Of a stretch of DNA of 64,000 nucleotides, positions 18,266-58,193 are shown piece by piece. Position numbers and translations under genes: made by a program. The first letter of the stretch is position 1. The number at the start of each line of letters is the position of its first letter. The stretch is from Emiliania huxleyi CCMP1516 (taxonomy: Eukaryota). The DNA lies in the NCBI RefSeq assembly GCF_000372725.1, contig NW_005201318.1:102342-166341 (forward strand). Direction: 5' to 3'. The notes beneath the pieces are model-generated. The model ran no database searches, was not told the origin of the DNA, and saw only the letters and a program-made list of their open reading frames with translations.

Positions 18266-21200
18266 GCGGTGCAGCACGGCGCTCCAGCATCTGCGGAGAC
18301 CGGGCGCCGACGGGTCACCGATGACTACTCCCTTGGCGCGGAGCTTGGATCGGGACACTTTGCGACCGTCCGACGCGGGGTCTGTCTGCGCACTGGCAAG
18401 GAGGTCGCCGTCAAGATAGTGCCCAAGACGATGCAGACGGCAGAAAGCATCCGCCACGAGTGCACCGTGCTGCAGCGCGTGAGCATCCACAAGCGCGTGG
18501 CCTCGCTCGAGGCTCTCTATGAAACGGACGAGCACTTTTACATCGTGATGGAGTACGTGTCGGGCGGGGAGCTTTTCGATCACCTCTGCGAGCATGGCGC
18601 GTACTCGGAGCGGGAGGCGGCGACTCTCATCTCCGAGCTGGCGGGGGCGATTGCGATCTGCCACGCGCAAGGCGTGGCGCACGCCGATATCAAGCCCGAG
18701 AACCTCTTGCTGACCCACGACGGCCACGTCAAGCTGGTCGACTTCGGGCTCTCCTGCCAGTACGTCAACAACGAGCGCGTCGACCCGAACGTTGGCGCTC
18801 GGCTCTAGATGCGGAACACCCCTGCTCCAACACGCCCTCGAGAGGACCGCATTCGGCTGCGCTCTAGGCGCGTCGGGCACGGCAGCGTACTGGGCGCCGG
18901 AGGTCTGGGGCTCTGGGTCGCCGGGGCTCACAAACGACATGTGGGCGCTGGGTGTGCTCACGTACATGCTGCTCACCGCGAGTCACCCCTTCGACGACGA
19001 GGGCCAGGCGAGCGACGACCAGATCCGCCACAACATCCTCCACCGGCAGGCATCCTTTGCAGACTGGACCGCTTCCGCGTCGGCGCGGCAGTTCGTCGAG
19101 ATGCTGCTGCGCAAGGACCCGACGACGCGGCTCTCAATCGAGCAGCTGCTGCAGGACGCCTCTCCCGCCGCCCCTTCACCCTCCCCCACGCTGCCACGAC
19201 CTCCTATTCCGCTCCTCTGCCTCTCTTGCACACGCCTCCACCCTGAGAATCCATCCTCGCTCTCTGCAGCACCCGTGGATCGTTGGAATGGACGACGACG
19301 CTCGGAGCCAGAGCACCACCGCCGCTGCCACGTCGGGCGCGCGCACGATGTGGGACCGGGTGCGTCAGCTGCAGCGGGCCGACCGTGCGGATGTCCGCAC
19401 GACCCTGACTGCTGTCCGCGTTGGTGGGACGCCTGCAGGTGCACCAACTGCAACGCGACCAAAAGATGCGCGCTTTCCGAGCGCACACCTCGCGGCTACG
19501 CGCCGCATGCTTCTCAGTGCTGCTGCAGCAGCAAGCGGCCGAGCGGGCCGAGCGGGCAGACGATGCGAGCGAGGGGCCCCATGTGCGCCGCTGGCTGTCG
19601 GCTCAGGCGGGCGCGCGGGCGCTGCGGAGGCACGAATCGCTGCGCGGGCCGATGCTCGAGGGGGAGCTACTCACGAAGACGTTCCGCGTCTTTGACGCCG
19701 ACGGTGAGGGGACCACCCCTGGCCACGGCTACGCGACTGGCTGCGCGCGCTGACGCCTCGTGTCCTGCAGGCAAGGGGTACATCTCTACCGCCGATCTCG
19801 ACCGGGTGCTCCGGCGCTTCGGGCAGAGCAGCGGCAGCGAGCAGCTCCTGCAGGGTGTGACTGAGGGCGACCGCGAGGGGCAGCGCATCACGTACGGCTC
19901 GTTTGTGCGGATGATGACGCACACCGTCAAGCAGGCGGGGCGTCCCAACACACTTCCACCTTCCAGAAGACACTCCCCGACCTCCGCCAAACCACCACCA
20001 CCACCACCACCCTGCTGCGCCGTCTCCACCCGAAGGCGCTTGACAGTGGCGACTACATCTACAAGCCCGGCGACCCCGTGCGCTACTTCTACGCGCTGCT
20101 TGCTGGCGAGGTGGAGGTGGTGCAGCCACGGGAGGACGGCGGCGAGGACGTTCTCACGAGGCTGGGCGCAGGCGATCTCCCCATATCTCCCCCCATCTCC
20201 CCATATCTCCCCCCATCTCCCCACGTTCTCACGAGGTTGGGCGCAGGTGGGCGCTCTTGCCCCCCCTCACCCCTCCCCCTGTCGTGCTCACTCTCACGAG
20301 CGCCAACAGGCGAGTATTTCGGCGAGAACAGCTTGCTCGAGGGGCGGCCCACCCGCTCGGCGGCCATCCGCTGCAGGACGCCGGTGGAGGTGCTCGAGGC
20401 TGCGCACGCACAGCCGGAGCGGGTGGCACATGTTGCTGACGTTGCACGTGATTGCCGCAGGTGCTCAAGCTCTCCAAGGAGGACTTCGAGGCCGGCTTTG
20501 GCGGGCACCGTGCCGCGGGCGGGCCCGATCAGAAGCGCCAGAAGTTGATCGCTTTCATCCAGATGGTGAGCAGGCACGAGAGGGGTCCCCACCGCTGCCC
20601 CCCCTCTGACTATTGCACTGATGTCTGTGGGGATGCCTCATCAGTGCAATAGTCACTCCCTGAGAAGGCACACACCGCCTCGTGTGCAATGCCCCCGTCT
20701 CTTTCGCGAGAGCGTGTGCCCATGGTGCTAGGACGTGTGTCACACTGACTGACTGACTGACTGACTGACTGACTGACTGACTGACTGACTGACTGACTGA
20801 CTGACTGACTGACTGACTGACTGACTGACTGACTGACTGAGCAGGCAGCAGCACCGCGCGCTCGAGGAGGGGGAGCCCGTGTTCTGCGCGGGCGACAAGG
20901 CGGACAAGTTTTACATCCTCGCGTCGGGCAGTCTTGTGGTCGTCGAGCCGCCGGCCGAGGGGGCGGCGGGATTAGAGGCGCACGGGGGGGACACGGCAGA
21001 CGCCTCGCCGTCGCTGGCATCCCGCCGTTCGTCGGGCAATTTGCCGCTCGGGCGCATCCGTGCGCGCGAAGGGTTTGGCGAGATGGCGCTGTTGAGCAAG
21101 CGCGAGGCGCGCCGCACTGCAGTCGCTGCCATGAGCGTGGCGCGCTGGTTGCCACATTGTGCGAGCCGTGAGTGCTTGTAGGTGCGCAGCAAGACGGTGC
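18089..21200 (+). CDS. CAMK/CDPK-like Ser/Thr kinase with EF-hands and two cyclic-nucleotide-binding domains; multi-exon, 3' end lost near the gap
   Basis: GSGHFATV, VAVK, HADIKPEN, DFG, YWAPE, DMWALG. EF-hand FDADGKGYISTADL. cNMP motifs GDPVRYFYALLAGEV...YFGENSLL..RSAAI and GDKADKFYILASGSL...GFGEMALL...RTAV. Confidence 0.85.
20745..20840. repeat. (GACT)n microsatellite inside a kinase intron
   Basis: Pure tetranucleotide run just before an acceptor CAG. Confidence 0.95.
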
Positions 21201-21525: not shown

Positions 21526-21996
21526 NNNNNNNNNNNNNNNNNNNNNNNNNNNNNNNNNNNNNNNNNNNNNNNNNNNNNNNNNNNNNNNNNNNNNNNNNNN
21601 NNNNNNNNNNNNNNNNNNNNNNNNNNNNNNNNNNNNNNNNNNNNNNNNNNNNNNNNNNNNNNNNNNNNNNNNNNNNNNNNNNNNNNNNNNNNNNNNNNNN
21701 NNNNNNNNNNNNNNNNNNNNNNNNNNNNNNNNNNNNNNNNNNNNNNNNNNNNNNNNNNNNNNNNNNNNNNNNNNNNNNNNNNNNNNNNNNNNNNNNNNNN
21801 NNNNNNNNNNNNNNNNNNNNNNNNNNNNNNNNNNNNNNNNNNNNNNNNNNNNNNNNNNNNNNNNNNNNNNNNNNNNNNNNNNNNNNNNNNNNNNNNNNNN
21901 NNNNNNNNNNNNNNNNNNNNNNNNNNNNNNNNNNNNNNNNNNNNNNNNNNNNNNNNNNNNNNNNNNNNNNNNNNNNNNNNNNNNNNNNNNNNNNNN
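21526..21996. other. Assembly gap
   Basis: Run of N. The flanking 21230-21525 looks like low-quality read-end sequence. Confidence 0.99.
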
Positions 21997-35170: not shown

Positions 35171-36822
35171 TGGAGGGCGGATCGCCGCCAAAAAAGGGCG
35201 CCAACGAGCTGGAGGCGTTTGATTTTTCTCTTTGCGACATCTCGCGTTCACTCTCGGCACGATCGTTCCCGTTTGCGACTCGACCTCCTCGTCGCCTTCA
35301 CCACAAGCCAGGTTGTCCTCCAGCTTGTGCCCGCCCGCGGCGCGGCGAGCCTCTCTGCTCCAGACACGGACTCTCGCCCTGGCCGCGCGCCGCCCTTTCG
35401 CCTCGCGAGACAGCGCATGTCAGCCGGAGCTCTCCGCCCGACTCTGCGCGCCACCGCCTCCTCCCCTCCACCCACACTGCGCCGCCTGCGGCTTGGGCGC
35501 GTCGCTCGAGTGCCCTCACTGCCTGTCCCTCTCCGCTCGCAGGTGCGGCCACCGCCGGTCGAGCACGTGGCCAGCATCTCTGCGCGCCACCGCGCCCGCG
35601 CCGCGCCCTGCCGCGCCACGCCTGTGCCAGGGCTCCGGGCCTGCGCCGCCCGCTCCGCGCTGGATTTGCCCATGCGCGCTGAGCGCCGTCCGCCGGCCGC
35701 CGCCGCATCCTCGATTTCTCCCCCCGCTCACCGGGCTGCCTCCGTCCGATCAGGTGCCGAGTCTGAGGTGCGCCTCGCTGCCGTCACGTTGCTTCACCTC
35801 CATCTAGGCGACCCTCTGGCCCTCGTCCGAGCCCACCCCTTCCCGCTGGCCAGCGAAAAGCGACTCCCGAACGCATGCCACCCACAGGTGCGTTCTGGCT
35901 GCTCGTGAGCGGCCGCGCCCCCTAGTCCATACGCATCTCCCCGACGCACAAACGCCACACAGCATACGCCCCGCCACAAAAACACACATCCCCGGCGCAA
36001 AGTGCGGGCGGCGTCATCGGCGGCGCGCGCAGTACTTCGGTCTTCCTGGCTGCGCTCGTCTTCCCACTACGTAACGTCGACGACTCTGTGCGCGGCACCA
36101 GCACTTTGGTCTCGGCTGCACGGTGCGCGGCTCGATCCTGGCCTTCAACCACCCCGCCAAGGTCCCCCCCCCCCCCCCTTCCCGCCTGCCTCGAGCCTCC
36201 TCCTCACGCTCGCCGTGTCGCCATCTCCGGCATGCCAGCAGCCCACTTACCCTCGCCTCCTCGTCGCTGCCGCTTCTCAGTCCGGGGAGGTGGTGGCCTG
36301 GCGACCCGACGACGACCTGTAAGGGCAACCACTCCGACGGCTCGTTGCAGGCGACCACCGAGTGCTACACAGACACCGCGGACGAGAGCTCGGTGCGCCG
36401 CTGCCTTGCCGCCCCGCGTGGGTGCATCTCACCCCAAGCACCAGATGACGCACTTGACCCCGGACGGCAGGGCGTTCGCGCTGTCACTGTCACGCCTCGG
36501 CCCGTCCTCGACATCGACGACGTGGAAGCATCGACCCGACCGCCGTCATCGCCGCTCCCGTCGACCCGACGTTCGGCCCGGCCATCTTTGCGCGAGTACG
36601 CCTACGCGGCGCTCCTCGGGCTCGTCCGCATCGAGGGAACTCTCATGAAGGGCGGCGGGCCGTGTGCAGGTGCCCGGCCCTCCTCCCCACCCCCTTCCTC
36701 TCCCCTGAGGTCGTCTCCAACCCCCCACCCCCCACCACCACCGCCCCACCCCCCCCTTCCCGCCTGCCTCGACCCCCCTCCTCGACCCCCCTCCTCGCGC
36801 TCGCGCAGGCCCGCGTCGCCAT

Positions 36823-37340
36823 NNNNNNNNNNNNNNNNNNNNNNNNNNNNNNNNNNNNNNNNNNNNNNNNNNNNNNNNNNNNNNNNNNNNNNNNNNNNNN
36901 NNNNNNNNNNNNNNNNNNNNNNNNNNNNNNNNNNNNNNNNNNNNNNNNNNNNNNNNNNNNNNNNNNNNNNNNNNNNNNNNNNNNNNNNNNNNNNNNNNNN
37001 NNNNNNNNNNNNNNNNNNNNNNNNNNNNNNNNNNNNNNNNNNNNNNNNNNNNNNNNNNNNNNNNNNNNNNNNNNNNNNNNNNNNNNNNNNNNNNNNNNNN
37101 NNNNNNNNNNNNNNNNNNNNNNNNNNNNNNNNNNNNNNNNNNNNNNNNNNNNNNNNNNNNNNNNNNNNNNNNNNNNNNNNNNNNNNNNNNNNNNNNNNNN
37201 NNNNNNNNNNNNNNNNNNNNNNNNNNNNNNNNNNNNNNNNNNNNNNNNNNNNNNNNNNNNNNNNNNNNNNNNNNNNNNNNNNNNNNNNNNNNNNNNNNNN
37301 NNNNNNNNNNNNNNNNNNNNNNNNNNNNNNNNNNNNNNNN
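36823..37340. other. Assembly gap
   Basis: Run of N. Confidence 0.99.
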
Positions 37341-37671
37341 GGGGGTTACCAGGGGGGATTAGTATCCAAAACTCTCCGGCCCCCCCCTCTTTGAATACCC
37401 ACAGAAATAACCGGCGCGGCCTCCCTCGGCCTGGCCGGAAGGGGCTCTCTTTTTGTTTGGCCCTGGTCGCCTGCAACACTCGCCCGACATGAACTTTAGC
37501 CCGCTCCCTCGTGACGCCGCCCTCCGCAGGCTCAACGTCCGAGCTTTGTCCCCCGTCACTCTCCTCTCATTTCAGACCCCACACATGCGCATAGCTGTTC
37601 GCGCTTCCGACCAATGCAGGCGCCTTGCCTCACCCCTCTCACGGGCGGCCCCCATTCTCTCTGCTCTGCAG

Positions 37672-40600
37672 GACGCGCGCCGAGAGGCGCTACATGGTCG
37701 ACTTCAATGAGAGCGAGGGCGAGTCGGCTTTCTTGGTTGTGAGATCAACAAAGGGCGTCTGGTTCGACAACCCCCACGTGTTCCATCGGAGCCTCGCAAA
37801 GGTGCCAATCAGCTTTTGTTTCGCGGAGGGGGCCCAGGTTCAGACCGAGCTCGGGCCAACGGCTTCCGTCAAGGTCGGTGGCTACTTCGCTTCCAGTGCG
37901 GAGTATGAGGAGTGGTATCAGCGCCGCCGCGCGAGCCTGACGCTGCCGCCTTCGCTCGGAGCTGAGGCGCGCACTTTTACGCCAGGATCGGCATTGTCCC
38001 TGCGGTGTCCCCGTCTCCAAACATTTACGTTTCTCCCTCGCGCAGGCGTGCGGCGTCAACAACGACGTCGTCGTGAAGGAGGAGGCCGCCGCCGAGGAGG
38101 CCGCCTCCGAGGAGGCCGTCGTCGCCGAGGAGTCCGCCACCGAGGAGGCGACCATCAAGTCCGCCGCCGGCGAGGTGTCCGCCGCCGCGGAGGAGTCCGC
38201 CGCCACCAAGTCCGCCGCCGCCGAGTCTGCCACCGAGGAGGCGACCACCGAGGAGGCGACCACCGAGGAGGCGACCACCAAGTCCGCCGCCGCCGAGGTG
38301 TCCGTCGTCGTAGAGGCAGTCGCCGAGGAGGCGCCCGTCACCGAGGAGGCCGTCGCCGAGGAGGCTGCCAAGGAGGTCGAGAAGCCGGCCAAGACCGTTT
38401 CCAACACGCCCGACCCAGCGGTGAGCGCGCCGCAGCATTCTCTCCTGGCACTCCTCGCTCTCCCACCGGTAACAATCTCCCTCCGGTGTGCCCCTATCGC
38501 GCTTGCAGGACACCACCTGCTACCCGGGCCTGCCCACGCCGAAGGCGGCGGAGAAGAGCGGGCCCGCGTCGGCCCGCAGCGGCTCCGGACCGGGCTACGT
38601 GGACGGCGTCGAAGCCGAAGTCCGCCGGCTGGGCGAGAGCGTCGTCTACCAGGCTACGCCCGCCGACGGCAAGAAGTCGCCGTCGCCGGGAGTCCCCACC
38701 TCCGGCGGCATTGCGCCCGTGGCGCCCAAGCCCCTTGGCGCGGTCGCGGGCGCGGGGCAGGCTGAGGCCGAGGCCGCCAAGGAGCGCGAGCACTGGGAGG
38801 GGCGGCTCAAGAAGGCGAAGGCCGCGCTCGATCTCATTGCCGAGCAACGGGAGAAGTGGGCGGACTTGCAGTCGCGGCGCTCGGGGAAGTGCCGGCGCAA
38901 GGCCATGCGCTGCCGCAACAACCCCAAGTTTGGCAAGGCAAAGGGCAGGCGCAAGTCTGGCAAGGCAAAGGGCAGGCGCAAGTCTGGCAAGGCAAAGGGC
39001 CGCGGCCGCGGCTCGCACCGGCGACCGAAGCCGCGCGGCGGGCCGCAGACGCCGCCTTGCAAGTCGCCGGACCGGCGCCGCGAGCCGCAGACCACGTCCG
39101 GCAAGGGGCCATTCGCCTCTGGCACGTGCGGCGCCGGCGCTGGCACATGCGGCGCCGGCGGTCGCGCCGGACTCAAGGCGGCGGCCGACTGCGTACGGGG
39201 CGGCTACACGAAGGCCGCGGGCGCCTTCCGGTGGCTGCTCCTCGTCTGCATCCCCGCCTTGGGCCACTGCGCGCCCGCCGTGCCTAGCCCGACGGCGGTG
39301 GCCTCGGCCTTCTCGTCTGCCGTCGCCTCGGCAGCCTCCGTCGCTTCGGAGGCGTCCTCTACCTTCTCATCCGGCGTCGCCTCGGCGGCGTCCTCGGCCT
39401 TCTCGCCCGCCGTCGCCTCGAAGGCGTCCTGCTCGCCGTTTCTCATGCCCGCCCTCGTGCTCATCCTACTCGCCATCGCCTGCGGCGCCTCCTGCCCGAC
39501 CGCGGCGAGCGGAAAGGGGGCTCGGCGCGGCGTGGGCCACCTGCCTCGCCGCCGCCACGGCGTGCCTCCCCAGCGCGGCGGCGTGCCTCCCCAGCGCGGC
39601 GGCGGCGCCTGCCGGCTGAGCAAGAGTGGCGGCTTGGTGGCCTTCCTGCTGCTGCTCTCCGCCCTCCCCGTGGCTCGGGCTGGGTCGGGCGAGGCTGGGT
39701 CTAGCGAGCTCTCGCCTCCTCCGCCGTTGCCGCCGCCCTCTCCGCCGCCCTCGCCGCCGCCGCCGCCGTCGCCTCTATCTCCGCCTCCGCCGCCTTCCTT
39801 GCCGCCACCGCTGTCGTGTACATTTGTCCTCACCGCGACGCTGACGGCTAGTAGCATCCTGCAGCTCTCCGAGCTACGGTTCTTCGAGGGGCCCACGCAG
39901 CTCGTCGTCGCGACGATCAGTGTCCCCGGTGGCAGCAGCCCTGCCAATGAGGAGATCTCCAACCTCGTCGACGGCCTCTTAAGTACAAAGTGGCTCGACT
40001 TCCGGACCTCGGGCAGCCGTACGATCATCTTCACCATCGCCGGCGCACCCTTCATCACCGGCTACCAGCTGTACACCGCCAACGACGCCAACGGACGAGA
40101 TCCGACGTCGTGGGCGCTCACCTGTGATGATGGGACGGCGGACAGTGTCTCCTCCTACTCGCCGCCGACCGCCAGGTTCACCTCATACGGGCTTGCGGCT
40201 TTCCGCAGCTTGCCACCGCCCCCGTTCCCGCCACCGCCTCCGCCATCTTCTTGCGCCATGGCGCTGGACCTCTCCACTCAAACCTCTCCGCTGTCATCGA
40301 GCACCGTCGGCGCTCCCAACACGCATGCCGCATCCTGCGGCGGCTCCGGCAATGAGAAGATCTTCTACGTCGAGGTGCCGGCAGGAGGCGAGCTCACGAT
40401 CAGAATGACGAACAACTCGTACGACTCGAGACACGAGACGCGTTGGGGCGGGAGCTGCCCAGGCGACAATTCCGTCGCATGTACCGACGACCCAGACACC
40501 TTGCAGCACTCGTGGATCAACACTCAGGATTCGACTCAGAGGGCGTACTTCATCGTGGACGCGTACTCGTCCGGCAGCGGCGACTTTGTACTCGCGTGGA

Positions 40601-40686
40601 ATGTCACGCCTTTGCCGCTTCCGCCGCCTCTGTCCCCGCCCCTGCCCCCGCCGCCTCTGTCCCCGCCTTTGTCCCCGCCTTTGTCT

Positions 40687-40717
<31 letters not shown>

Positions 40718-43700
40718 TGTTGCCACCCTTCCTTTCGCCGCCACCCTCTCCGCCGCCGCCCTCTCCGCCGTCGCCGTCACCACCGCCGCCACCGTCACCA
40801 CCGCCGCCGCCGTTCCCGCCTCCGTCCCCGCCTCTGTCACCGCCCTTGTCCCCGCCGCCGCCGCCGTCGCCGCCGCCGCCGTCATCGCCGCCGTTTCTGC
40901 CGCCGCCGCCCTCTCCGCCGCCGCCCTCTCCGTCTCCGCCGCTTTCGTCGCCTCCGCCCTCACCGGCGCACCCGCCCAAACCTCCGCCGCCGCCACCGTC
41001 ATCGCCGCCTCCGCCCTCTACGCCGCCGTCCTTGCCGCCTCCGCCCTACGCGCCCCCGCCGTCCCCGCCGCCACCGCCGCTGCCGCCTCTGTCGCCGCCC
41101 CCGCCTCTGCCACCGTCATCGCCGCCTCCGCCCTCTACGCCGCCGTCCGTCCCGCCTCCGCCCACCGCGCCGCCGCCGACCCCGCCGCCTCCGCCGCTGC
41201 CGCCTCTGTCACCGACCCCGCCTCTGCCGCCGCTCTTCCCCGGCTTTGTCGCCGCGGAGAGCGAGGCTAAGCTCGGCTCCCTGATCACGGAGGCTGCTAT
41301 TTTGCAAGCCGACGTCTCAATCTACCTGCCTCCCAGTGCGGACTTCAAGCTGGGTAACTATATCTACTGCAGTTCCAACATCAAGGTGACCGTCGCGAGC
41401 AGCGGCGAGGGCGCGACGCTCGACGGCCAGGAACAGACCGGGCTCTTCTACCTCCAGGGCGGCTGCAGCCTCACGCTGCGGGGGCTGACCCTCGTCAACG
41501 GGAGGGCGGAGTACGGCGGCGTTGTGGACGCGAACGGCGCAGGCGACGTCGAGATCATCGATTCGACAATTAGGGACTGCAGGGCTGACAATGTGCGCCG
41601 CTTAGAGCTACCACCGCCCTGCAGCGCCACACGGCAGCGAGGCGAGAGATGGAAAGGGACACGGCTGGCCTCACCCCGCTCTCTCCTCGCAACTGCAGTT
41701 CGGCGGCGTTGTCTACGTGTACAACAGCGGTGCGGTCTCGATAAGCGGCTCGGCCGTGACCGGCTGCTCTGCTGAGCGGGTGCGCCGCGTAGAGCTAGTC
41801 GCCTCCAGCAGCGCCACACGGCAGCGGGGCGAGAGAGAGGGACACGGCTGCCCCACCCCGCTCTCTCCTCGCAACTGCAGGATGGCGGCGTCGTCTGCAC
41901 GCAGAACAGCGGTGCGGTCTCGATAATCGGCTCGAACCTGACTGACTGCTCCGCTGGCAATGTGCGCCGCGTAGAGCTAGCCGCCTCCAGCAGCGACGCA
42001 CGGCAGCGGGGCGAGAGATGGAGAGGGTCGCAGCTGCCTCACCCCGCTCTCTCCTCGCAACCGCAGAACGGCGGCGTCGTCTATGCGAGAGATAACAGCG
42101 ATTCCCCAGTCATCACGGGTGTCGACTTCATCAACAACAGAGCGGACGGGTCAGGCTCGGTGCTGTACCTGCAAAACCAACCCTCCGAACAAAGAACCTC
42201 GATCAGCGACGCCTCCTTCACCGGCAACGACGGTGTCACGATACAGACCATCAACTCGCCGATAGATTGGGACTGCCGCTTGGGCAGCTGGATGCCACGC
42301 CAGGGCGCTTTCGAGGGCGATTTCAGCGCCCCCGAGTGCAACCTTTGCTCCGCTGGCTACTACGGGAACACGATCGGCCTCACCGACAGCTCCTGCGAAG
42401 GTGCGTGTCACAAAGGCTACTTTTGTCCCGCGGGCACAGCGGAACCGCTCCCGTGTGCACCGGGCTTCTACATGCCCGTGACGGGCGCAGCCAGTGCCGA
42501 GTCGTGCCTCCCTTGCTCTCCGGGGACGAGCCAGTCCACAGCCGGCGCGGTACAATCCTGCGACCCGTGTCCTCCCGGCACGTTTGCCGATCAGCTCAAC
42601 GCCACCGGCTGCACCGACTGCCCCGCGGGAAGCTTCTGCCCCAGTGCAGGCACCGTGCAGCCCCTCGACTGTGCCGCAGGGGAGTACCAGAACCTCACCG
42701 GCCAGGCTGCGTGCGTGCAGTGCCCTGCTGGCGAGTTCCAGCCGGAGCGCGGGCAGACGTCGTGCGATTTGTGTGCCGCGGGTGGGTACTGCGAAGTCAC
42801 TGACGACTGTGGCGGCGGCTTCACGCCCTGCCCTGCGGGGAGCTACAACGATAAGACGGGCAGCAGCTCACCCGACGCCTGTCAGCAGTGCCCCCCTGGT
42901 ACCTTTAGCCCGACCTCAGGAGCTAACAGCAGCGACACGTGCAAAAGCTGCCGCTCCGGCACCTTTGCTGCCGGCTCGCGCAACGCCGAGTGCGAGCCGT
43001 GTAAGGCGGGATCCTACCAGAATGCCACCGGCGCTGCCGGCTGCGTCCGGTGCGGGCTTGGCAGCTTCTGCCCGGTCGGCGCGTCGCTCGAGCTGCCCGC
43101 GGCGTGCGAGCCGGGTACATACGCCGACGTCACGGACAGCGACGGCTTGCCCGACTGCTTCGACTGCCCGGCGGGCTCGTCGTGCGGCGGCGGGGCTGCG
43201 CCGCCGGCGGAGTGCTCGCCGGGCTCCGTTGCCGCCACGCCTGGCCTCGCCAAGTGCGAGCGGTGTGAGCCTGGCACATCTTCCGGCGCCGGCAGCGAGT
43301 CGTGCAGCGAGTGCGCTGCAGGCACTTACGCCGCCAACCCCGGCCAGGGCCAGTGCGTCCCTTGCCCCCACCCCCTCAGTAGTGAGCGCGGCGCCGTCAT
43401 CTGCTCCGTCTGCCAGAAGGACTTCTACCTGCTCCAGAGCGCCGACCCGTCCGACATCTTTTCCTCCCCGACCGACTACTGCAAGCCATGCCCGCCAAAC
43501 GCCGAGTGCTCGGACGACACCACTCTCGCGACCATCGGCGTCCGAACCGGCTACTGGCGCGCCAGCCCCTCCTCCGCCGTGCTGACGGAGTGCCGCGACT
43601 TCGGGGGCGACAGGGCCGGCGAGGCGCGGTGCTCCGGCAGCGAGCGCGGAGCAAAACCGGCTTCTCGCCTTTTGGGGGAGGCGGGCTCGGACGAGTACTG

Positions 43701-46700
43701 CGCGCCTGGCTTCAAAGGCCCCGAGTGCCAGCTCTGCGCCGCGGAGAATCACTACCTCGCCGACGGCGACGAGTGCAAAGAGTGCGCAGCGCGCGGCGCC
43801 GCTGCGGGTCGCATCGCCGGCCTCGTCCTCGGCCTCTGCGTCGCGTGCGGCCTGGCGGCGTGGGCCTTCAGCATGACGGACTGGCGGGAGAAGCGATACA
43901 TCGGCCCAATCCTTCGCTTTGCAGACCGCTCCGTCAAGTACTACGTCGGGGGCGGAATGACGGCCAAGGTCAAGATCCTGTTTGGCTTCTACCAGATCAG
44001 CACCGTGTTGTCCTCCACCTACTCGGCGCGGCTGCCGGACAAGTACACGGGCTGGACCGACAAGCTGGCCAGCGCGATCTCCATCGACTGGTCGGGCTTC
44101 TTCTTGCCGGAGCAGTGCCTCGGCTATGGTATGCGACTCCTCGTCAGCGCTCTCTCCCCCGTCGCCCTCATCGCACTGCTCATGGGAACGGGAATCGCGC
44201 TGCGGCTCCGCCGCTGGCGTGCCGCGCCGCCACCGCGCCCAACGGAAGCATCGGGATCGGGACCGGGAGCCGACACCGGACTCGTGGAGGCATCGATGTC
44301 GATGTTTGAGGAATCGACGACGTCGGTGATGTCGGCGGTGTCGGCGATCGCTGAAGCGATAAACACAGACGAGTCAACGGTATCTGCATCGCATGCGAGG
44401 CCGTGGTACGCAGAGGCGGCCCTCGGCCTCCTCGACCTCATGCCCGCCGGCTTGGTGCTCATCTTCTGCTTCGTGCCCTCCATCAGCGCCTCCATCTTCC
44501 GCGCGTGGTCGTGTCAGGCGCCTCCAGCCGATGACTGCCGTTGCTCACGCCACCCCTCAGACCCCACCCTCAGGCAACGTGCTGCTGCTAGGCCTACACC
44601 ATCTCTCCGCCGAACGAGCCCCTGGAGCAGGTCTCCTACATGCGGCAGGACGCGAGCGTCGAGTGCGGCACCGAGGATCACGAGTCCATCACCGACCTCG
44701 CCATCGGCTTCATCGTCGTCTGGCCGGTCGGCTCGATGGTCCTCTTCACGTCGCTCCTCGCCGCCTGCTACAAGCCGCTGCAGGCCAAGTCGCCGAATGC
44801 TCTGACGCGGGCCACCGCCTTCCTCCACCGGGAGTACGAGAAGACCTGGTACTGGTGGGAGGCGGTCGAGCTGGCGCGCAAGCTCGTGCTCACGGGTTTC
44901 GTGCTGCTGATCCCGGAGAAGAACGCATTCCTTCGCCTCGTGGTGGCGACCCTGATCTGCTCGTGCTACGCCGTCGTGCTTGCCGTCGTGCGGCCGTACA
45001 AGCGGGTCGAGGACGACGTGCTAGCCGTCGCCACGAGCCTCGTGCTCCTCCTCCTCTTCCTCGGCACCAACTGGACCACCATCTTCCTCGGCATCGAGGA
45101 GCGGTACCAGGGAGCCGACCCCGCCGATGTCCTCGGCTTCGGAAAGCTCAATGTGATCGTGGACACGATGATCGTGCTCGTTGCTGTTGCGCTCGTCTTC
45201 TTCTTAATCGGCGCCGTCGTCGCCGCCCGCCGCGTCGCCGAGGTCCCCACGATCCGTCTCGTCTCGACCAAGCAGCCCCCCGAGCTGAGCATCGGGACCG
45301 GCATCACGTGGCACCTGTTCCTCTCGCACATCTGGTGCGTCACGCAGCTAGGGAGGATGATCAAGCCAGGCCGCATCCAACTCCACCCCCCTAATCATGC
45401 AGGTCGACCGGTCAAGACGCCGTCGGAAACATCAAGAGCGAGCTCCAGCTGCTGGTGCCGGGCCTCAAGATCTTTCTCGACGCGCGCACAGGCTCAGCCG
45501 CGCTGCTTTAGCTACACACAGCCCTTCTGACGCACCGCGGAGTGCGCACAGGTGGATGATCTAAAGGATATTGGGTCGCTGGAGGAGTACATCCAGCGCA
45601 CGCAAATGATCCTCTTCTTCCTCTCGTGTGGCTACTTCCGCTCCAAGGCGCGCTCTCGCCGCCCTGTCCCGCGCTCGGGATCCTCTGGCTCTCATCGCAC
45701 CCGAGTCTGCTGCGCCCCTCGACACTCCCCACGGCTCACCGCCCGCCTGCTTGCGTGCCACCAGAACTGCCTCCGCGAGATCCGCTCATCGCTCGAGATG
45801 GACAAGCCGATCGTCCTCGTCCAAGAGGCGGACCCTGCAAAGGGCGGCGCGACGTTGCAGGCGCTGCGCGGCGAATGCCCCGAGGACCTGCAGCCGGACA
45901 TCTTTGAAAAGGGCTGGACGCACACCATCTACATGCGAATTGAGGAGTTTCAGCGCGTCTCTCTCAAGACCATCGTCGAGGCGCAGCGGGGCACAGAGCC
46001 AGCCGCAGTCCTCTCTCCCCTCCCAAGACCTCAGCCCCGGCACTCTTGAACCGCAGGCGGTGCTCCTCTGCTCGCCCGCCTATCTGAACCAGACCTCCCT
46101 CCCGCTCTGCGTGCCGGGCGAGCCCGAGAGCCAGTCGCTCGCCTTTGCCAAGGAGACCATGCTCTGGGCCTCACCGGCCAACGCGGGCGCACAGGTCTTG
46201 GCTGAAGAGATTGCCGGCGCCGTTGCCGGTCTCACCGTCTCCACCGCCGAGGCGCCCGAGCCAGCGGCCCACATGCTGCTCTACCTCAACGAGGACAGCT
46301 TCAGCGACGAGCGGCTGGCCGAGCAGGTCAAGCAGGCGCGCAAAGACAAGCGCAAGATCGTCATGGCGCACGAGAACGACCCGGACCGCGGTGGCTGCCT
46401 CTTCTCGAAGTTTTTCGAAGTCACGCCGCAGGAGCGGGCCGAGGGGTTGGTCATGATGCTCTCAATCTCAGGCGCTTAATCTCCCCTCACCCGCATACCC
46501 TCCCTTGCAGGAGCTCATCGCCGACGGACTCTACAAGACCCTGGCACGCTCGTGCTTCCCGGGGCGCCACCACCCGGCGCGCGCTTTGTCTCTCCCACAT
46601 CTCGCTTCGCGCACCGGCGGGACTCACCAGCCAGGGCGTTTCGTTCCGCAGGTGTCGCTCGCGCTTCTGGCAAAGGACCTCGGCGCGACTCCCGCTCGGT

Positions 46701-46894
46701 CGGGCAGCGTCGCCAGCATGAGCCGCCTCTCGGCCAGCATCGCCAAGCGTGGCAGCCGGCGCGTTCCCACGATCAGCCGCCGCAGCTCTGCGACGACAAC
46801 CACCGCGGGCGACGGCTCTGGAGGCGAGGCGACGGTCTCGGTGGACTCGGAGGAGTCCGCGGTCTCGGCGGAGGCGGCGCAGGAGCATGTCTAA
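37672..46894 (+). CDS. Giant modular membrane receptor: discoidin-like domain, Pro-rich stalks, beta-helix repeats, Cys-rich GCC2/ephrin-receptor-like repeats, about 9 TM helices, TIR domain plus second TIR-like unit; 5' end unresolved
   Basis: LQLSELRFF...NLVDGLLSTKWLDF...YTANDANGRDPTSW; GGVV repeats; many C.PC.PG.(Y/F) repeats; TM block with FLHREY...WYWWEAVELARK and RPYK. Spliced TIR: HLFLSHIWSTGQD...IFLDVDDL...LFFLSCGYFRSKNCLREI...KPIVLV. Stop TAA at 46892-46894. Confidence 0.85.
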
Positions 46895-47681
46895 CGTTGG
46901 CGGCAGTCGCCACAGCACACAGGCGTCATCTTGAGCAATTCACATAAGCAGGGGCGCCAGCGACCCGCCGGGGAGGAGGGGTGGGAGGCGCTTGCCGCGT
47001 CGGCGATCTCCGCGGGTCTGGGTCCATATCCGCCGCGCGCTCGCAGTGATGGGGACTTTCGCGCAGCGGTGTGCTGCGCGGCGCGCCTTCTCTGGAGCGG
47101 AGAGAGGCGTGGTTGGGGGGAAGGAGCTGGGGCGGAGGGAGAAGATGCACAGCTAGGCGCCCACTGGCCGTAGTTGCCCACTGGCCGTAGAGGCGTCTCT
47201 CGCGCGCGCGCCGGCCAGCTGGCGGGCGCCCAGCGCTGGGGTCCTAGATTGGGTTTTGGGTAGGGCGGGAGGCAGGAGGGGAGACGACGAAGAGGGTCTC
47301 GCGTGCGCACACCGCGCGTCGTTGCATGTACTTGAGCGTAAATAAATAAAAACGGAGACGTCTCTAAACTGCGAGATGGGAAAAAGCTAAAAGGAACAGG
47401 TCCCCGCCCTTGCGATCTTTGGAGGGTTCTGTACTTGAGCGTGCCCCGCGGGAGGTCCCACATTTTTCTTCACCTCAGATACATTAGGAACATTACATAC
47501 TGAACACTCAAAAAATAATGAACTACAAGACCCGCAGAACTTCCCGCAGAGCAGACCGTACAACACTCACACACAAGCAGCCTAGAGTACACGCAACGAT
47601 TCCAAAGAACAGTCGGTAGCGGCGTCGCGTGAGGGCGCTACCCACAGAGGGCAAGTGCCACGCGACTGCCGATCAGCCTAC

Positions 47682-48548
47682 TCACGCGACCGGCCCGTAG
47701 GCACGGTCGAGCAGCGTTTGCGGGCAGTCGACCGGCTTGGACGTTGCGACATGGAGGTTGTGCGGGAAGGCGCCTTGGTTGCATCCAAGCTGTCCGAACA
47801 CACCGAACAGCACTTTGTGGCAGGCCTGGAGTGCCTTGTGATCGCCGTCGGCGCCGCCCCAGATCGTGTCGCAAAGCGACTCGTCCTCGAGGCCACCGGA
47901 CACCGCGCACTGCGATGGGGAGCCGTCCTTGGGGCAGATGTCGTAGAACTCACCCCAGCCAGAGTACTCCGTCAACCCGTTGGTGTTCGCGCCAAGCCCA
48001 CCGCCGGGCACCATCAGGTCCATGTTGTTCTTGCTGCTGTCTCCGCCGTTGGTGTTCATCACGATGGCGGAGTCGATGTTGCGTGCGTCGGTGAACGTGA
48101 GCTCGTAGCACTGTCCGCACGGCGGCCACGAAGCCGTAGAGCACTCGGTCCTCAATCCATGGGTACTGGTCGCCGTGCCGCCTTGGCACACGTTGTCGTC
48201 GTCATCCTTGGGGGTGTATGGGGTCACACCGTCGGCCTCGCAGGTTCTGACGAGCCTCGTGGCATGTGCCGAGAACGCGCAGCTTGGGCGGCAGCCATCG
48301 TAGTAGTGCGTCATGCTAAAGATGGGCTTGCCGAAGGGATCTTGCTTGGGTTCGCATGTGTAAGTGGGGTTGCTCGGGTCGTAGTCGTGCTTCACACGCG
48401 CATCGGTCACGCAGCAACACGGCTCGTCCGGATCGTGAGATTGACCGTAGCTTGAGTTGCTCAGGTTCGGAGCGCACGTGTTGGGTGGCGCCGAGGCGAT
48501 CTTCAAGACGGGAGCAGCGTGGATGGAGGCGAAGGCGAGGGCAAGCAT
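47682..48548 (-). CDS. Secreted glycoside hydrolase family 45 endoglucanase-like protein; single exon
   Basis: Signal peptide. MTHYYDGCRPSCAF (cf. TRYWDCCKPSC), CGQCYELTF and TNGGDSSKNNMDLMVPGGGLG, with both catalytic-position Asp residues. Confidence 0.85.
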   Translation of the reverse strand: MLALAFASIHAAPVLKIASAPPNTCAPNLSNSSYGQSHDPDEPCCCVTDARVKHDYDPSNPTYTCEPKQDPFGKPIFSMTHYYDGCRPSCAFSAHATRLVRTCEADGVTPYTPKDDDDNVCQGGTATSTHGLRTECSTASWPPCGQCYELTFTDARNIDSAIVMNTNGGDSSKNNMDLMVPGGGLGANTNGLTEYSGWGEFYDICPKDGSPSQCAVSGGLEDESLCDTIWGGADGDHKALQACHKVLFGVFGQLGCNQGAFPHNLHVATSKPVDCPQTLLDRAYGPVA

Positions 48549-49269
48549 GATTTTGTGTCGCGAGCAGCAGTCGAAAGTCTAGCCGAAAGCAGTGACCAGT
48601 TTCATCCTTTCTCGCTTCCTTCACCTCCTTCACTCGTCATTTATTCAATGTCGGCAGCCGATGAAGGACGACAGTCGACATTTTTTTGGCAACTCGCTTC
48701 CTCGGACCCGCGGTTGCGTCGGACGCATTGCATTGCCCTTTGGCGCTCTGAAAAAAGAACCCAAATTGAGCTTACGGCAAAATCGGAAAGGCCGGCGTCA
48801 GGACTGAGATAAGGACGCGACGGCGGATTCGCCGACGCTCTGCTCGGACATGAGCAAGCGGACGGTCGCGTACACTTCAGCTGCACAAACGTGCTCGCGC
48901 GCGCCCGACCATTCGGCTTCCAACTTTCGTCGATTCTGCAGCCGCTTGCACTGTGGCTGTTGCGGATTACATCCAGGCCACCACGCAGCTGTCGTGGCCC
49001 CCGCGGCAGCCGGTCCCATCCTGTTCCCCAATGACCCCCTACCCCTGCGGCGGCAGAGCCGCCGGCCTCCCACGCCCTACCCCCCTACCCCACCCAAATG
49101 CTATCGTACCCTACCGCCACAGCCCCCTCCAAGCCGAACCCTGCGTGTAGCGTCCATCACGCCCCTGCGATCCAACCGCGCCCAGCCACGGAAGACATCG
49201 CGGGCCTCTCCTTTGGCCGACGCCAGGAAAAGAAACCGGCATGTTTGCAGTCGACCCGTGCACGCGCAC

Positions 49270-55285: not shown

Positions 55286-56617
55286 TTAATGTGAAGCACT
55301 GCTATCCGTGGCCCCCCGCCCCTCGCTCACCGCCCGACGTCCAGCCGAGGGCCGCCGCGCGCAAGCGGTCGAGCAGCCCCGCCCCCCTCATCGCGAAGAG
55401 CGCCGCCTTGTTTTTCAGCGTCGGCTTGGCAAGGCGCAGCACGCCCTGCTGGGCGCACGAGGCGACGAGCTGTCCTGTTGCACGCCGATGCGGTGACGAG
55501 ACGGCGAGAGGGGCGGTGGAGCGCGGGCGATGCGGGGAGGTCTCGCCTGTGTCTGGGCGGTAGAGGTGGCCAAAGCAGAGGGCCCTGCCGGACCCTATTC
55601 AAAAAGCAGCGCCCTGAAGAGGCCCCCTGTTCACGCCCTCCGGCAGAGGGGCCAGCCTGGCCGCCTGCAAAGGGCGCGTGCATGTCGTAGAGGAGCCAGT
55701 CATCGGCGTCGAAAGGGCCGTGGAACCACATCGAGTGGTCCAGCGTCGCGAGCGCGCCCAGCTTGGGCGATGGGAAGGAGATCCGATGGGGCCGCAACGC
55801 CGTGAGCAGGAGAGGCTGGTCCGAGATGTACGCGGCGCAGGCCGCGTCCAAGCCGGGAGCCTTCGTGATTGGCTCGCGGATTCGAACCCACAGTAGCTGG
55901 CGGCTGGGCATGCTCGGCGGGTCCGGGTCGAGCGGGTCGTGAGGAGCGCCCACCGCATACCGCACCTCGATCGGCGATGCGCGGAGCTCCTCAATCAGCG
56001 GCAGCAGCGCCGCAGGGGCGCGTGCCATCAGGTCGCCGAGGAGATCGTCCATCCCCAGGCACTCGTCGGGGGCAACCACACCTCGAGGCATGCCGGTGAC
56101 TCCGTCCGCTCGCTCCACGTGCCTCAGCTGCGACTCCTCGGGCCGCGCGAACTGCGCCTGCATCTTGAAGATGATTTGGCCGTTCTGGATGGCGTCCACG
56201 GAGCGCGAGTCGAAGGAGCGCAGATTGGAGGTCTCGCGGCACTGGTAGATTATATCGCTAGTTGGACTGCCGCGCTTCAGAAAGTACGAGTGCAGCGAGA
56301 TGGGCAGCCAGGAGTCGCGGTGGACGGTCAGCTGGGCGGCGTGCAGAGCCTGACCCATCACCTGCCCGCCGAAAACTGACTTGCCGCCCGGTGGCACCCA
56401 CAGGAGCTTGCTCGACGCACGGTAGAGCCCGCTGTCCACCTGCGTTCGTCAGGTCGTGCTGGAGGCCGAGTGTACTGCGGTACGTGTGACGAGCGCACAC
56501 CTCGTCGAGGTCGAGGTGCGAGCGCCTCGTCGGACGCAGCTGGTGCCGGGTGAACCGGGTCCGGACGGCGAGCCACACGACACGGCGGTGGGGACGAAGG
56601 CAGGCCTTGCCTCTCAT
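55286..56617 (-). CDS. Acyl-CoA thioesterase II (TesB/ACOT8 family); spliced
   Basis: VFGGQVMGQAL, SLHSYFLKRG, AYISD, ATLDHSMWFH, DWLLYDM, last exon LVASCAQQGVLR. Start uncertain. Confidence 0.9.
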
Positions 56618-56942
56618 GTACGTACGTCTCTCTCTCTCTTGTTTCGCAGCCACTTCGGCGCCCGCGCCAAATTCAGTTTTCTTTTTAGTAATTTTTTTAG
56701 CTCCACTGTATTCCATGACGCCCCGGCTCGGGATGTGCTCGCCTGTCGCGACGGCTGCCCCTCCCTCGCCGCCAACCCGTCTCCTTGCCTCCTCTTCTCA
56801 CGGACCACAGGGGCTGCACAACAAAAGCACACAAACACCCCAAGTGTTAGATTTGGGAAAAATAAAAAACCTTCTCTCTCCAAAACCGGTGGTGCCAGTC
56901 CGCGCCAGTCCGCGCCCTTGTCGTGCCAGCCTGCGCAGTGCC

Positions 56943-58193
56943 ATGGCCGCCCACCGCATCGGCGCACGTCTCGCGGGCCTCTCGCCGGAGCAGCTGTGCG
57001 CCTTCATCGACGAACAGGCGCCTCTCTGGAGCGCCGCCGCCTTGCGCGTGGCGGAGGAGCACGCCGCACTCGTGGAGCAGCCCGAGTGGGTGCTCTCCGA
57101 GGTCCTCCTCTCGCCGGACCTCGCCCCGCACATCCTCGCCCAGCTGCCGACCAAGGCGCACGCCGTCAAGGGGACGTGCCGCGCGTGGCGCCGCGGCTGG
57201 AAGGAGACGCTGAAGAAGCGCGACAGGCCGCGCCTGGTCGTGTTCGGCGGCCACGGCAGCAACGACGAGCCTGTATCCTTCATCAGCTCGCTGGAGCGGT
57301 ACGACCCCTCTACGAATGAGTGGGAGGGGGAGACTGTGGCGCCGATGCTGACGGCACGCGACTGTTGCGGCATGGCGGTGCTCGATGGCAAGCTCTACGC
57401 GGCGGGCGGCAGGGACGAGGGAGACGAATCTTGCAACCTGGTGGAGCGGTACGACTTGGCTACGAAAGGGTGGGAGGTTGTGGCGCCGATGGCGGTGGCT
57501 CGGAATCAGCCTGGTGTGGCGGTGCTCGACGGCAAGCTATATGCTGTGGGCGGCATGGAGACTGGCGACGGCGGCGTCCCCAACCGCCTCAGCTCGGTGG
57601 AGCGGTACTGTCCCGCGACAAACGCGTGGGAAATGGTGGCGCCGATGGGTTCGGTGCGGCAGAGTCCCGCAATGGCGGTGCTCGACGGCAAGCTGTATGC
57701 TGTGGGTGGATACGGCATCGAGGAGGAGGAGGAGGAGGAGGAATGGGGAAACGACGGCCGCCCCCTCAACTCTGTGGAGCGATACGATCCCGAGATGAAT
57801 GCGTGGGAAGCGGTCGCGCCGATGGGGTCGAGCCGAGACGAATGCGGCGTGGCGGTGCTCGAAGACCAGCTGTATGCTGTGGGCGGGGAAGGTTCGGAGC
57901 CCGACTCCGACGACGGCGACGGTGCCCTCAGGTCGGTGATTCGGTATGATCTCGCGACGAACACGTGGGAGACGGTGGCGCCGATGTCGACAGAGAGGAA
58001 AGCGCTCGGCGTGACGGTGCTTGACGGCATGCTCTACGCTGTGGGCGGCGAAAACTACGAGGGAGTGGCGGACGACGACTACGAGGGTCCATTCATGAAG
58101 AGTGCAGAGCGTTTCAACCCGGCGACGAGCGCTTGGGAGGAGGTGGCGCCGATGGCGGCAGCGCGGGCCTTTGCTAGCGCGCTCTCGATGTAG
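56943..58193 (+). CDS. Kelch-repeat protein with F-box-like N-terminus; single exon
   Basis: Repeated AVLDGKLYAVGG...SVERYDP..N.WE.VAPM. VLLSPDLAPHILAQL...TCRAWR is F-box-like. Confidence 0.92.
   Translation: MAAHRIGARLAGLSPEQLCAFIDEQAPLWSAAALRVAEEHAALVEQPEWVLSEVLLSPDLAPHILAQLPTKAHAVKGTCRAWRRGWKETLKKRDRPRLVVFGGHGSNDEPVSFISSLERYDPSTNEWEGETVAPMLTARDCCGMAVLDGKLYAAGGRDEGDESCNLVERYDLATKGWEVVAPMAVARNQPGVAVLDGKLYAVGGMETGDGGVPNRLSSVERYCPATNAWEMVAPMGSVRQSPAMAVLDGKLYAVGGYGIEEEEEEEEWGNDGRPLNSVERYDPEMNAWEAVAPMGSSRDECGVAVLEDQLYAVGGEGSEPDSDDGDGALRSVIRYDLATNTWETVAPMSTERKALGVTVLDGMLYAVGGENYEGVADDDYEGPFMKSAERFNPATSAWEEVAPMAAARAFASALSM

What the first reader, a model, noticed from the sequence alone, without database searches (positions are those of the whole stretch)
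39600..46894. Giant multi-pass receptor ending in a catalytic-type TIR domain: candidate algal innate-immune or sensing receptor
Seen: signal-like segment, discoidin/F5-8C-like domain, a second beta-rich domain, Pro-rich stalks, beta-helix repeats, a long Cys-rich repeat array and about 9 hydrophobic helices. After removing introns 45335-45402, 45482-45551 and 45648-45764 the tail reads WHLFLSHIWSTGQDAVGNIKSELQLLVPGLKIFLDVDDLKDIGSLEEYIQRTQMILFFLSCGYFRSKNCLREIRSSLEMDKPIVLVQE. Known: FLSH, (I/V)FLD, LS..Y..S..C..E and terminal P(I/V) motifs define TIR domains, and that Glu is the catalytic residue of NAD+-cleaving TIRs (SARM1, plant TNL, Thoeris ThsB). Toll-like receptors are single-pass LRR proteins with non-enzymatic TIRs. 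Inference: an independently assembled receptor coupling glycan/ligand binding to NADase signalling. An odd TM count would place the TIR in the cytosol. The TM block (FL..EY...YWWE..EL.RK, RPY) resembles fungal Flc/Pkd2 TRP-like modules, so channel activity is possible.
Basis: partly seen in the sequence, partly recalled or inferred. Interest (0 to 1): 0.88.

Follow-up and report, generated by a model that had tools for sequence, protein, structure and literature searches.

The report
Nine-helix algal receptor with twin TIRs
This spliced gene of a bloom-forming alga encodes a giant membrane protein with swappable outer modules, nine predicted membrane helices and an inner TIR domain that likely cuts NAD+ when a ligand clusters it; it is one of many copies of a receptor type already noted in this alga but never tested.

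Summary
The three introns named are spliced in RNA reads from alleles or close paralogs. A model of a 63% identical paralog gives nine membrane helices, a cytosolic TIR closest to SARM1 (Z 16.4) and the Glu in the catalytic register; it is kept in 184 of 185 homologs. Corrections: the open frame starts about 1.9 kb further upstream (2720 aa, 12 introns), so the 39600 'signal' is internal or the start is unresolved; the TIR is not the end, a degenerate second TIR follows. It is one of a large haptophyte family (709 clusters at E<=1e-30). Multi-pass TIR receptors of the same clade are already reported as virus-induced in Gephyrocapsa huxleyi (PMC12489294), though none of this gene's 13 closest named paralogs is listed there. 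Not found in print: the constant 9-helix + TIR + pseudo-TIR core, ectodomain modules shared at 80-88% with unrelated proteins, and beta-helix rungs each on an 81-nt phase-0 exon, 1-8 units per locus. NADase activity, ligand and channel activity are untested; the outermost domain had no RNA reads.

The parts
37694..39520 (+). In-frame upstream leader: exons 37694-37966, 38046-38420, 38509 onward; Glu/Ala-rich repeat, basic stretch, two hydrophobic segments (39226, 39439). Multicopy; may be a separate gene family fused in frame here
   Evidence: Joints skipping 79 and 88 nt in 531 and 470 reads; DNA contig depth about 1100 vs 60 (X15) and 76 vs 10 (X13); +CG after 39522 in 83 of 118 reads; open frame; similar leader in P0049
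39616..39684 (+). Signal-like hydrophobic segment, internal in the open frame, no ATG of its own
   Evidence: Hydropathy; same motif at residue 761 of P0049
39814..40209 (+). Discoidin / F5-8C (CBM32-like) domain, candidate glycan binder
   Evidence: 7NSN E 2.1e-9; 37-38% to F5_F8_type_C repeats of P0256; 83% identical to a module of unrelated P0250; zero RNA depth at 39932-40142 in X19
40249..40611 (+). Second beta-rich module (weak PPC hit)
   Evidence: PPC E 0.021, below cut-off; 82-88% identical to modules in a class-3 lipase, EMIHUDRAFT_195332 and P0248
40612..41244 (+). Pro/Ser-rich stalk
   Evidence: Translation; tandem repeats
41245..42267 (+). Beta-helix-type region; rungs on 81-nt phase-0 exons (41699-41779, 41881-41961) between near-identical introns 41593-41698, 41780-41880, 41962-42066
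   Evidence: 182-nt tandem unit, 83% matches; same three introns in allele L001; 1-8 intron copies in 13 loci; Beta_helix hits in paralogs such as P0001, P0049
42268..43809 (+). Cys-rich repeat array (54 Cys)
   Evidence: Ephrin_rec_like E 2.1e-26; count
43813..45209 (+). Nine predicted transmembrane helices, Flc/Pkd2-like; intron 44518-44591
   Evidence: AF2 models of paralog P0015; family hydropathy and alternating Lys/Arg-rich loops; joint in reads
45309..45980 (+). TIR1 over four exons; catalytic-position Glu codon 45777-45779
   Evidence: SARM1 TIR Z 16.4, rmsd 2.0, 128 aligned; Glu in 184 of 185 homologs; joints
46156..46684 (+). TIR2, degenerate TIR repeat; Gln (46324-46326) at the Glu position; introns 46432-46510 (GA donor) and 46577-46651
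   Evidence: hhalign TIR1 vs TIR2 97.8%, E 6.9e-13, 87 columns; alternating strand/helix order; joints in 10 and 41 reads
46685..46894 (+). Ser/Arg-rich then acidic tail and stop codon
   Evidence: Translation; RNA depth falls after 46912

Best explanation
The gene encodes one copy of a large haptophyte family of multi-pass TIR proteins; it is likely a surface receptor in which ligand binding to the swappable outer modules would cluster the nine predicted membrane helices and bring the predicted cytosolic TIR1 domains together to cut NAD+ into a signal. Shown: spliced open frame, domain order, Glu conservation, family size, module sharing. Predicted from a paralog model: TIR fold, nine helices, cytosolic side. 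Inferred from SARM1, plant TNL and Thoeris biochemistry (own knowledge): activation by TIR assembly and NAD+ cleavage. Inferred: TIR2, which lacks the FxSH and FLD motifs and here the Glu, acts as a built-in assembly partner or brake. Inferred: the ligands are microbial or viral surface glycans or proteins, and the family works as a diversified recognition repertoire.
For: Joints for all seven introns from 44518 to 46651. TM and TIR in one uninterrupted genomic frame in paralog loci L008 and L011; L002 keeps only the first TIR intron. Wild allele L001 98.8% identical over 41021-44114 with frame kept. TIR1 fold nearest SARM1; Glu in register with plant TIR 'CLDE' and kept in 184 of 185, with S6, H7, W9, D35, Y63 at 94-99%. 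Lys/Arg 18-21.5% in loops 1, 3, 5, 7 against 6.6-9.3% in loops 0, 2, 4, 6, 8, placing the TIR inside. Same core carries Venus-flytrap, GPS, FG-GAP, MAM, laminin-G, GH19 and kelch ectodomains. Same-clade TIR genes with 5 and 8 predicted helices change expression in EhV infection, and one is a core resistance gene (PMC12489294 section 20, Table S9).
Against: No activity data for any member. Only 4 of 29 Glu-bearing TIRs of unicellular eukaryotes gave a cyclic ADPR in E. coli (preprint passages; linear ADPR was not what the assay targeted). None of the 13 closest named CCMP1516 paralogs occurs in the virus paper's spreadsheet (long cells are cut). RNA reads are mostly not from this exact copy, depth is zero over domain A and 42185-42578 at 95%, so no full-length transcript is shown. 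The start is unresolved. TIR_2 score of the 81% identical P0012 is below Pfam's cut-off (25.4 vs 28). The structure is of a paralog, not of this protein.
Confidence: 0.55

Rival explanations
1. The nine-helix block is the working part: a Pkd2/Flc-like Ca2+ channel or mechanosensor gated by the long stalk, with the TIRs as regulatory or feedback modules; the role is general sensing rather than immunity.
For: PF06011 hits in 5 of 73 homologs and 12% of an Atlas cluster; Pkd2 is also predicted at nine helices (10.1101/2022.08.11.503631, passages) and is reported Ca2+-permeable on stretch (PMC9727806, title and abstract start only); conserved polar residues K92, K94, Q101, W310, E311, R336 in the helices; EF-hand and PDZ tails in relatives.
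Against: The window's own TM exons give no PF06011 hit. TIR1 is more conserved than the TM block across the family (about 45-56% vs 23-37% in distant homologs).
Confidence: 0.15
2. TIR1 and TIR2 are non-enzymatic scaffolds that recruit soluble TIR adaptors, as in classical TLR signalling; the Glu is kept for structure.
For: Low hit rate of Glu-bearing protist TIRs in the published screen; TLR, IL-1R and MyD88 TIRs score only about 2 Z units below SARM1 (14.0-14.4 vs 16.4); TIR2 is conserved without a fixed Glu (E 85, Q 34, D 11 of 151).
Against: Glu 184 of 185 in TIR1 against 56% in TIR2 within the same proteins argues for catalytic constraint.
Confidence: 0.15
3. The family is functional, but this copy is a recent chimera of a multicopy leader, mobile modules and a receptor core, and is weakly expressed or dispensable.
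For: Leader is multicopy and most reads carry +CG at 39522, a frame that stops at 39619; domains A and B occur in none of 202 TM/TIR homologs but at 82-88% in unrelated proteins; no RNA over domain A; allele L001 differs by 17 non-synonymous and 13 synonymous codons.
Against: 2720 codons without a stop and all 12 splice sites usable; the allele keeps the frame through compensated indels; P0049 and P0248 show similar leader, signal-like segment and module order.
Confidence: 0.15

Closest known systems
Multi-pass and single-pass TIR proteins of Gephyrocapsa (Emiliania) huxleyi, Shaler et al. 2025 (PMC12489294): cogent2584_i1, cogent9830_i1, 373cFLNC_128518286, cogent2074_i1
   Same: Same TIR clade by eye (FxSHxWxTGQDQ...FLDVD.L...SxGYFxSxNCxRE); N-terminal TM helices (5 and 8 predicted); TRP+TIR Pfam call for cogent2584; receptor-like signalling role proposed there.
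   Different: That paper does not describe the nine-helix core, the second TIR, the modular ectodomains or the rung exons in the parts I read; this subfamily's named members are not in its spreadsheet.
SARM1 / C. elegans TIR-1 (enzymatic animal TIR)
   Same: Nearest solved fold for TIR1 (Z 16.4, rmsd 2.0, 28% identity); Glu at the catalytic position.
   Different: No ARM or SAM domains; integral membrane receptor; second degenerate TIR.
Toll-like and IL-1 receptors
   Same: Ectodomain - membrane - cytosolic TIR logic.
   Different: No LRR or Ig ectodomain found; nine helices, not one; no sign of common origin beyond the TIR fold.
Fungal Flc / fission-yeast Pkd2 (Pfam PF06011)
   Same: Nine predicted helices with N-out, C-in topology; weak profile hits in homologs.
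   Different: Cys-rich array instead of the Ig-like lipid-binding domain; TIR pair instead of a disordered tail; channel activity unknown.
Exon-shuffled LRR-ROCO and NB-ARC-TPR candidate receptors of Ectocarpus (PMC3341825)
   Same: One repeat per exon, consecutive phase-0 exons of equal length, variable copy number, variable surface positions.
   Different: Repeat is a beta-helix rung, not LRR/TPR; extracellular; signalling unit is 9TM-TIR, not ROC-COR or NB-ARC.

Membership tests
Enzymatic TIR domains (SARM1, TNL, ThsB type) | TIR fold | tested here: met
   AF2 model of 63% identical paralog, pLDDT 91.7; SARM1 TIR Z 16.4, rmsd 2.0, 128 aligned
Enzymatic TIR domains (SARM1, TNL, ThsB type) | Glu in the catalytic register of helix C | tested here: met
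   Aligned with plant TIR 7XOZ CLDE; 184 of 185 homologs; residue-level superposition on SARM1 E642 not obtained
Enzymatic TIR domains (SARM1, TNL, ThsB type) | NAD+ cleavage on self-assembly | not testable with these tools
G. huxleyi multi-pass TIR receptors (PMC12489294) | TIR of the TGQDQ clade after several N-terminal TM helices | tested here: met
   Motif comparison by eye with Table S9; topology
G. huxleyi multi-pass TIR receptors (PMC12489294) | Differential expression in EhV infection or recovery | tested here: inconclusive
   13 closest named paralogs absent from the spreadsheet, positive control found; this gene's own id is unknown and long cells are cut
Toll-like receptors | LRR ectodomain and a single TM helix | tested here: not met
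   No LRR in Pfam scans of the exons; nine helices
Plant TNL / SARM1 | NB-ARC-LRR, or ARM-SAM, beside the TIR | tested here: not met
   No such Pfam hit in the window exons scanned or in 73 homologs
Flc/Pkd2 (PF06011) | Nine-helix membrane domain, N out and C in | tested here: met
   Pkd2 count from preprint passages
Flc/Pkd2 (PF06011) | PF06011 score above the curated cut-off | tested here: inconclusive
   Own exons: no hit (the block is split by an intron); homologs 5 of 73 hit, 1 above cut-off
Flc/Pkd2 (PF06011) | Ig-like lipid-binding domain directly before the helices | tested here: not met
   That place holds Cys-rich Ephrin_rec_like repeats
Flc/Pkd2 (PF06011) | Ca2+ permeability | not testable with these tools
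   Needs reconstitution
Canonical TRP channels or GPCRs | Fold of the membrane domain | tested here: inconclusive
   No Foldseek match at E<=0.001; best VIA Z 8.0 over 84 residues; absence from the list does not exclude a family
CBM32 / F5-8C discoidin | Sequence kinship | tested here: met
   7NSN E 2.1e-9, weak 4A3Z hit; P0256 repeats; no direct Pfam hit
CBM32 / F5-8C discoidin | Glycan binding | not testable with these tools
   Needs glycan array
Exon-shuffled algal candidate receptors (PMC3341825) | Consecutive equal-length phase-0 exons, one repeat each, variable in number | tested here: met
   16 of 18 rungs are 78 or 81 nt, all in phase 0 by construction of the pattern; 1-8 intron copies per locus, several loci truncated
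Exon-shuffled algal candidate receptors (PMC3341825) | Diversifying selection on the repeats | tested here: inconclusive
   15 unique rungs: pN 0.21, pS 0.20 overall; 0.52 vs 0.28 at five positions chosen after the fact
Exon-shuffled algal candidate receptors (PMC3341825) | ROC-COR or NB-ARC signalling domain | tested here: not met
   works like, is not a member

The most novel reading that the evidence does not exclude
Haptophytes have a combinatorial immune-receptor repertoire: a fixed nine-helix + active TIR + pseudo-TIR signalling core of unsolved fold, onto which ligand-binding modules are swapped and whose beta-helix is lengthened and varied by tandem exon-intron rung units, so that virus or microbe binding triggers an ADPR-type messenger, possibly coupled to Ca2+ entry through the same protein.
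Probability: 0.25. Interest if true: 0.85.

Novelty: new member of a known kind. Interest (0 to 1): 0.55.

Why it matters
How bloom-forming algae sense giant viruses is open, and the 2025 transcriptome study left the TIR genes untested. This locus gives a clean, splice-supported model of the commonest-looking receptor core, a natural Glu/Gln TIR pair and a variable ectodomain, so the idea of TIR-based surface immunity in a protist becomes directly testable. The nine-helix domain has no clear solved relative, and the rung exons offer a second possible case of exon-shuffled algal receptors beside the brown algae.

Tried and rejected
No whole genome is held, so paralogs could not be counted in the source assembly. 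Fold searches of the TM-only model: no Foldseek match at E<=0.001 and best VIA Z 8.0, no named channel or GPCR standing out; this shows neither a new fold nor a difference. Narrow-pattern scans for close TIR relatives found none in prokaryote genomes (25 pattern matches, 0 confirmed) or viral contigs (45, 0 confirmed): weak evidence. Single-sequence PDB search with a paralog TIR gave only unrelated hits; profile searches gave TIR structures at E 0.011-1. Complex prediction of the TIR pair was not available. The wide fold search of the two-TIR model was never run, so TIR2 has no structural match of its own. No Rfam match at 36000-48000. Earlier scan findings: none. Whole-word searches of the supplement were judged unreliable and redone with a control. 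Rejected: TIR exons as a separate gene; TIR outside the cell; assembly artefact for 41021-44114 (allele L001). In one search one rung was out of register and inflated exon distance (0.32); one search replaces it (0.21). Runs X1 and X4 could not be read.
Full report
Gene model. The window is about 64% GC and the closest named relatives are Emiliania huxleyi CCMP1516 proteins, 76-87% identical over the main TM exon, so the source is that species or a close relative (inference). Splicing by coordinates gives an open frame across ten introns from 41593 to the stop at 46894. PolyA reads of X19 show joints matching all seven introns from 44518 onward: skips of 74, 68, 70, 117, 76, 79 and 75 nt in 15-18, 58, 31, 14, 12, 10 and 41 reads. 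Several joints can slide by a few bases. One intron needs a GA donor; GC and GA donors are documented in this species (PMC4028052, passages). Only 90 of 1318 laid reads are 99% alike or better, so this is evidence for alleles and close paralogs more than for this exact copy. First mates lie on +, which is the less common library sense; the splice ends read GT/GC..AG on +, so I take + as the coding strand. The three beta-helix introns have almost no direct read support (one 2-read entry); they rest on frame, splice ends and the allele L001.

There is no ATG at 39600. Reads show two more introns upstream (37967-38045, 531 reads; 38421-38508, 470 reads), and with them the frame is open from ATG 37694 to 46894, 2720 residues; loose read ends before 37670 suggest a further exon toward the assembly gap. 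This leader looks multicopy (contig depth about 1100 vs 60 in X15, 76 vs 10 in X13; RNA depth 190-1560 vs 0-78 downstream; depth is only a rough guide). 83 of 118 reads have two extra bases after 39522, which would shift into the frame that stops at 39619. So either the leader with its hydrophobic segments is the true N terminus, as in the gene model P0049, or the receptor starts at Met 39445 or an unseen exon. No read or contig listed bridges leader and domain A, and domain A has zero RNA depth. A full-length transcript is not shown.

Outer part. Domain A is discoidin/CBM32-like (7NSN E 2.1e-9; 37-38% to F5/8C repeats of P0256). Domain B has only a weak PPC hit. Neither occurs in any of the 202 TM/TIR homologs collected, yet they are 82-88% identical to modules in unrelated proteins: a class-3 lipase, EMIHUDRAFT_195332 and P0250. 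A Pro-rich stalk, a beta-helix-type region and 54-Cys repeat array follow. A metagenome contig, L001, is 98.8% identical over 41021-44114 with 17 non-synonymous and 13 synonymous codon changes and frame-neutral indels.

Rung exons. The beta-helix rungs sit on 81-nt phase-0 exons between near-identical introns (182-nt unit). A scan for a 30-nt intron motif gave 13 loci with 1-8 intron copies each, several cut by contig ends. Leaving out L001 as the same gene, 18 rungs were recovered by a strict pattern, 16 of 78 or 81 nt, 15 unique. Positions 1, 6, 8 and 9 hold 7-9 residues each, six positions are invariant; pN and pS are 0.21 and 0.20 overall, 0.52 and 0.28 at five positions chosen after the fact; intron cores differ by 0.17. 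This meets the structural criterion used for exon shuffling in Ectocarpus (PMC3341825, abstract and section 17) but is not a test of selection, and the loci were picked by the intron itself.

Membrane block. I folded residues 571-1344 of paralog P0015 (470 of 741 aligned positions identical to the window model) with 93 sequences: pLDDT 91.7, pTM 0.83. Nine helices have family mean hydropathy above 1.0 (two barely, 1.02 and 1.03). Loops 1, 3, 5, 7 have 18-21.5% Lys/Arg and loops 0, 2, 4, 6, 8 have 6.6-9.3%; the linker to the TIR has 11%. The TIR is therefore predicted cytosolic. PF06011 hits 5 of 73 homologs scanned (73 of 202 held), one above cut-off, and 12% of one Atlas cluster at score 0.85, a lead only. 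Fission-yeast Pkd2 is also predicted at nine helices (preprint passages). The fold comparison with solved structures was inconclusive.

TIRs. TIR1 matches SARM1 TIR best (Z 16.4, rmsd 2.0, 128 aligned, 28%), with IL-1RAcP, TIR-STING, SPARTA and plant TIRs at 12.7-14.4. The Glu (45777-45779) aligns with the plant CLDE motif and is kept in 184 of 185 homologs with a TIR1 stretch, out of 202. A second unit follows: profile comparison with TIR1 gives 97.8%, E 6.9e-13 over the C-terminal 87 columns, and the model shows alternating strands and helices. It lacks the FxSH and FLD motifs; its Glu position is E 85, Q 34, D 11 of 151, and Q or H in all 19 close homologs. Of 159 homologs with 200 or more residues after TIR1, 149 have TIR2; of 130 with 250 or more before it, 125 have the TM block (the set was gathered largely with TM-containing queries). 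L008 has Cys array, helices and TIR1 in one 966-codon genomic frame, and L011 has the last helices and both TIRs in one 531-codon frame, so the fusion does not depend on my splice calls.

Family. phmmer with P0016 finds 709 clusters (50% identity) at E<=1e-30 and 2810 at 1e-10, partial matches included. Named members are E. huxleyi and Prymnesium parvum; Atlas clusters are eukaryotic, commonest Haptophyta, on few labelled members. Most homologs carry no name, so the range is not settled. Ectodomains vary widely: Venus flytrap, GPS, FG-GAP, MAM, laminin G, GH19, kelch; some have PDZ or EF-hand tails.

Literature. Shaler et al. 2025 (PMC12489294; abstract, passages, section 20, spreadsheet tables S2 and S9 in part; the PDF and a large text supplement not read) report 15 differentially expressed TIR genes with the Glu conserved, and propose a receptor-like role for those with an extracellular region or several N-terminal helices. 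By eye four share this TIR clade, including cogent2584 (TRP + TIR, 5 helices), cogent9830 (8 helices) and the core resistance gene cogent2074. The 13 closest named paralogs of this gene are not in the spreadsheet. A 2026 preprint (10.64898/2026.04.20.719644, passages; supplements closed, so a tested haptophyte member could be listed there) finds cADPR from TLR4 and from 4 of 29 unicellular-eukaryote TIRs. PMC4236053 (passages) mentions TIR proteins in E. huxleyi lipid rafts. Searches for the specific architecture returned nothing relevant; the library lacks most subscription papers.

Verdict. A real, intact-looking member of a known but untested class. Most likely a ligand-clustered TIR NADase receptor (0.55); channel-centred, scaffold and dispensable-chimera readings share the rest. 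That active TIRs need self-assembly is my own knowledge, not a result here.

Noticed in passing
window 37400-39520: Highly transcribed, spliced, multicopy Glu/Ala-rich leader; reads leaving it at 37581 and 39326-39526 continue into other sequences, and similar leaders precede unrelated modular proteins (P0049, P0033, P0249). Could be a gene family or a mobile unit that captures modules.
   Followed up: partly
window 41593-42066: The ~105-nt rung intron is very high in DNA contig depth (X13 about 1800, X15 about 9400), so the exon-intron unit is probably present in very many copies; L008 and L011 carry it on a distant TIR subclade.
   Followed up: partly
window 46432-46510: GA-AG intron needed to keep the conserved TPQEL motif; a 79-nt skip is seen in 10 reads and one contig.
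   Followed up: yes
window 47682-48578 (-): GH45 endoglucanase-like gene converging on the receptor (E 5.9e-11).
   Followed up: no
P0062: Homolog with two TM-TIR units in tandem in one 2498-residue protein.
   Followed up: no
P0052 (Prymnesium parvum): Same TIR pair on a cytochrome b561 / peroxidase / DOMON protein without the nine-helix block.
   Followed up: no
P0051, P0055, P0087, P0098, P0115, P0137: GPS (adhesion-receptor proteolysis) motif far upstream of the helices in six homologs.
   Followed up: no
window 18714-20606 (+), 55330-56448 (-), 56490-58190 (+): Protein kinase, acyl-CoA thioesterase and kelch-repeat frames; assembly gaps at 21526-21996 and 36823-37340.
   Followed up: no
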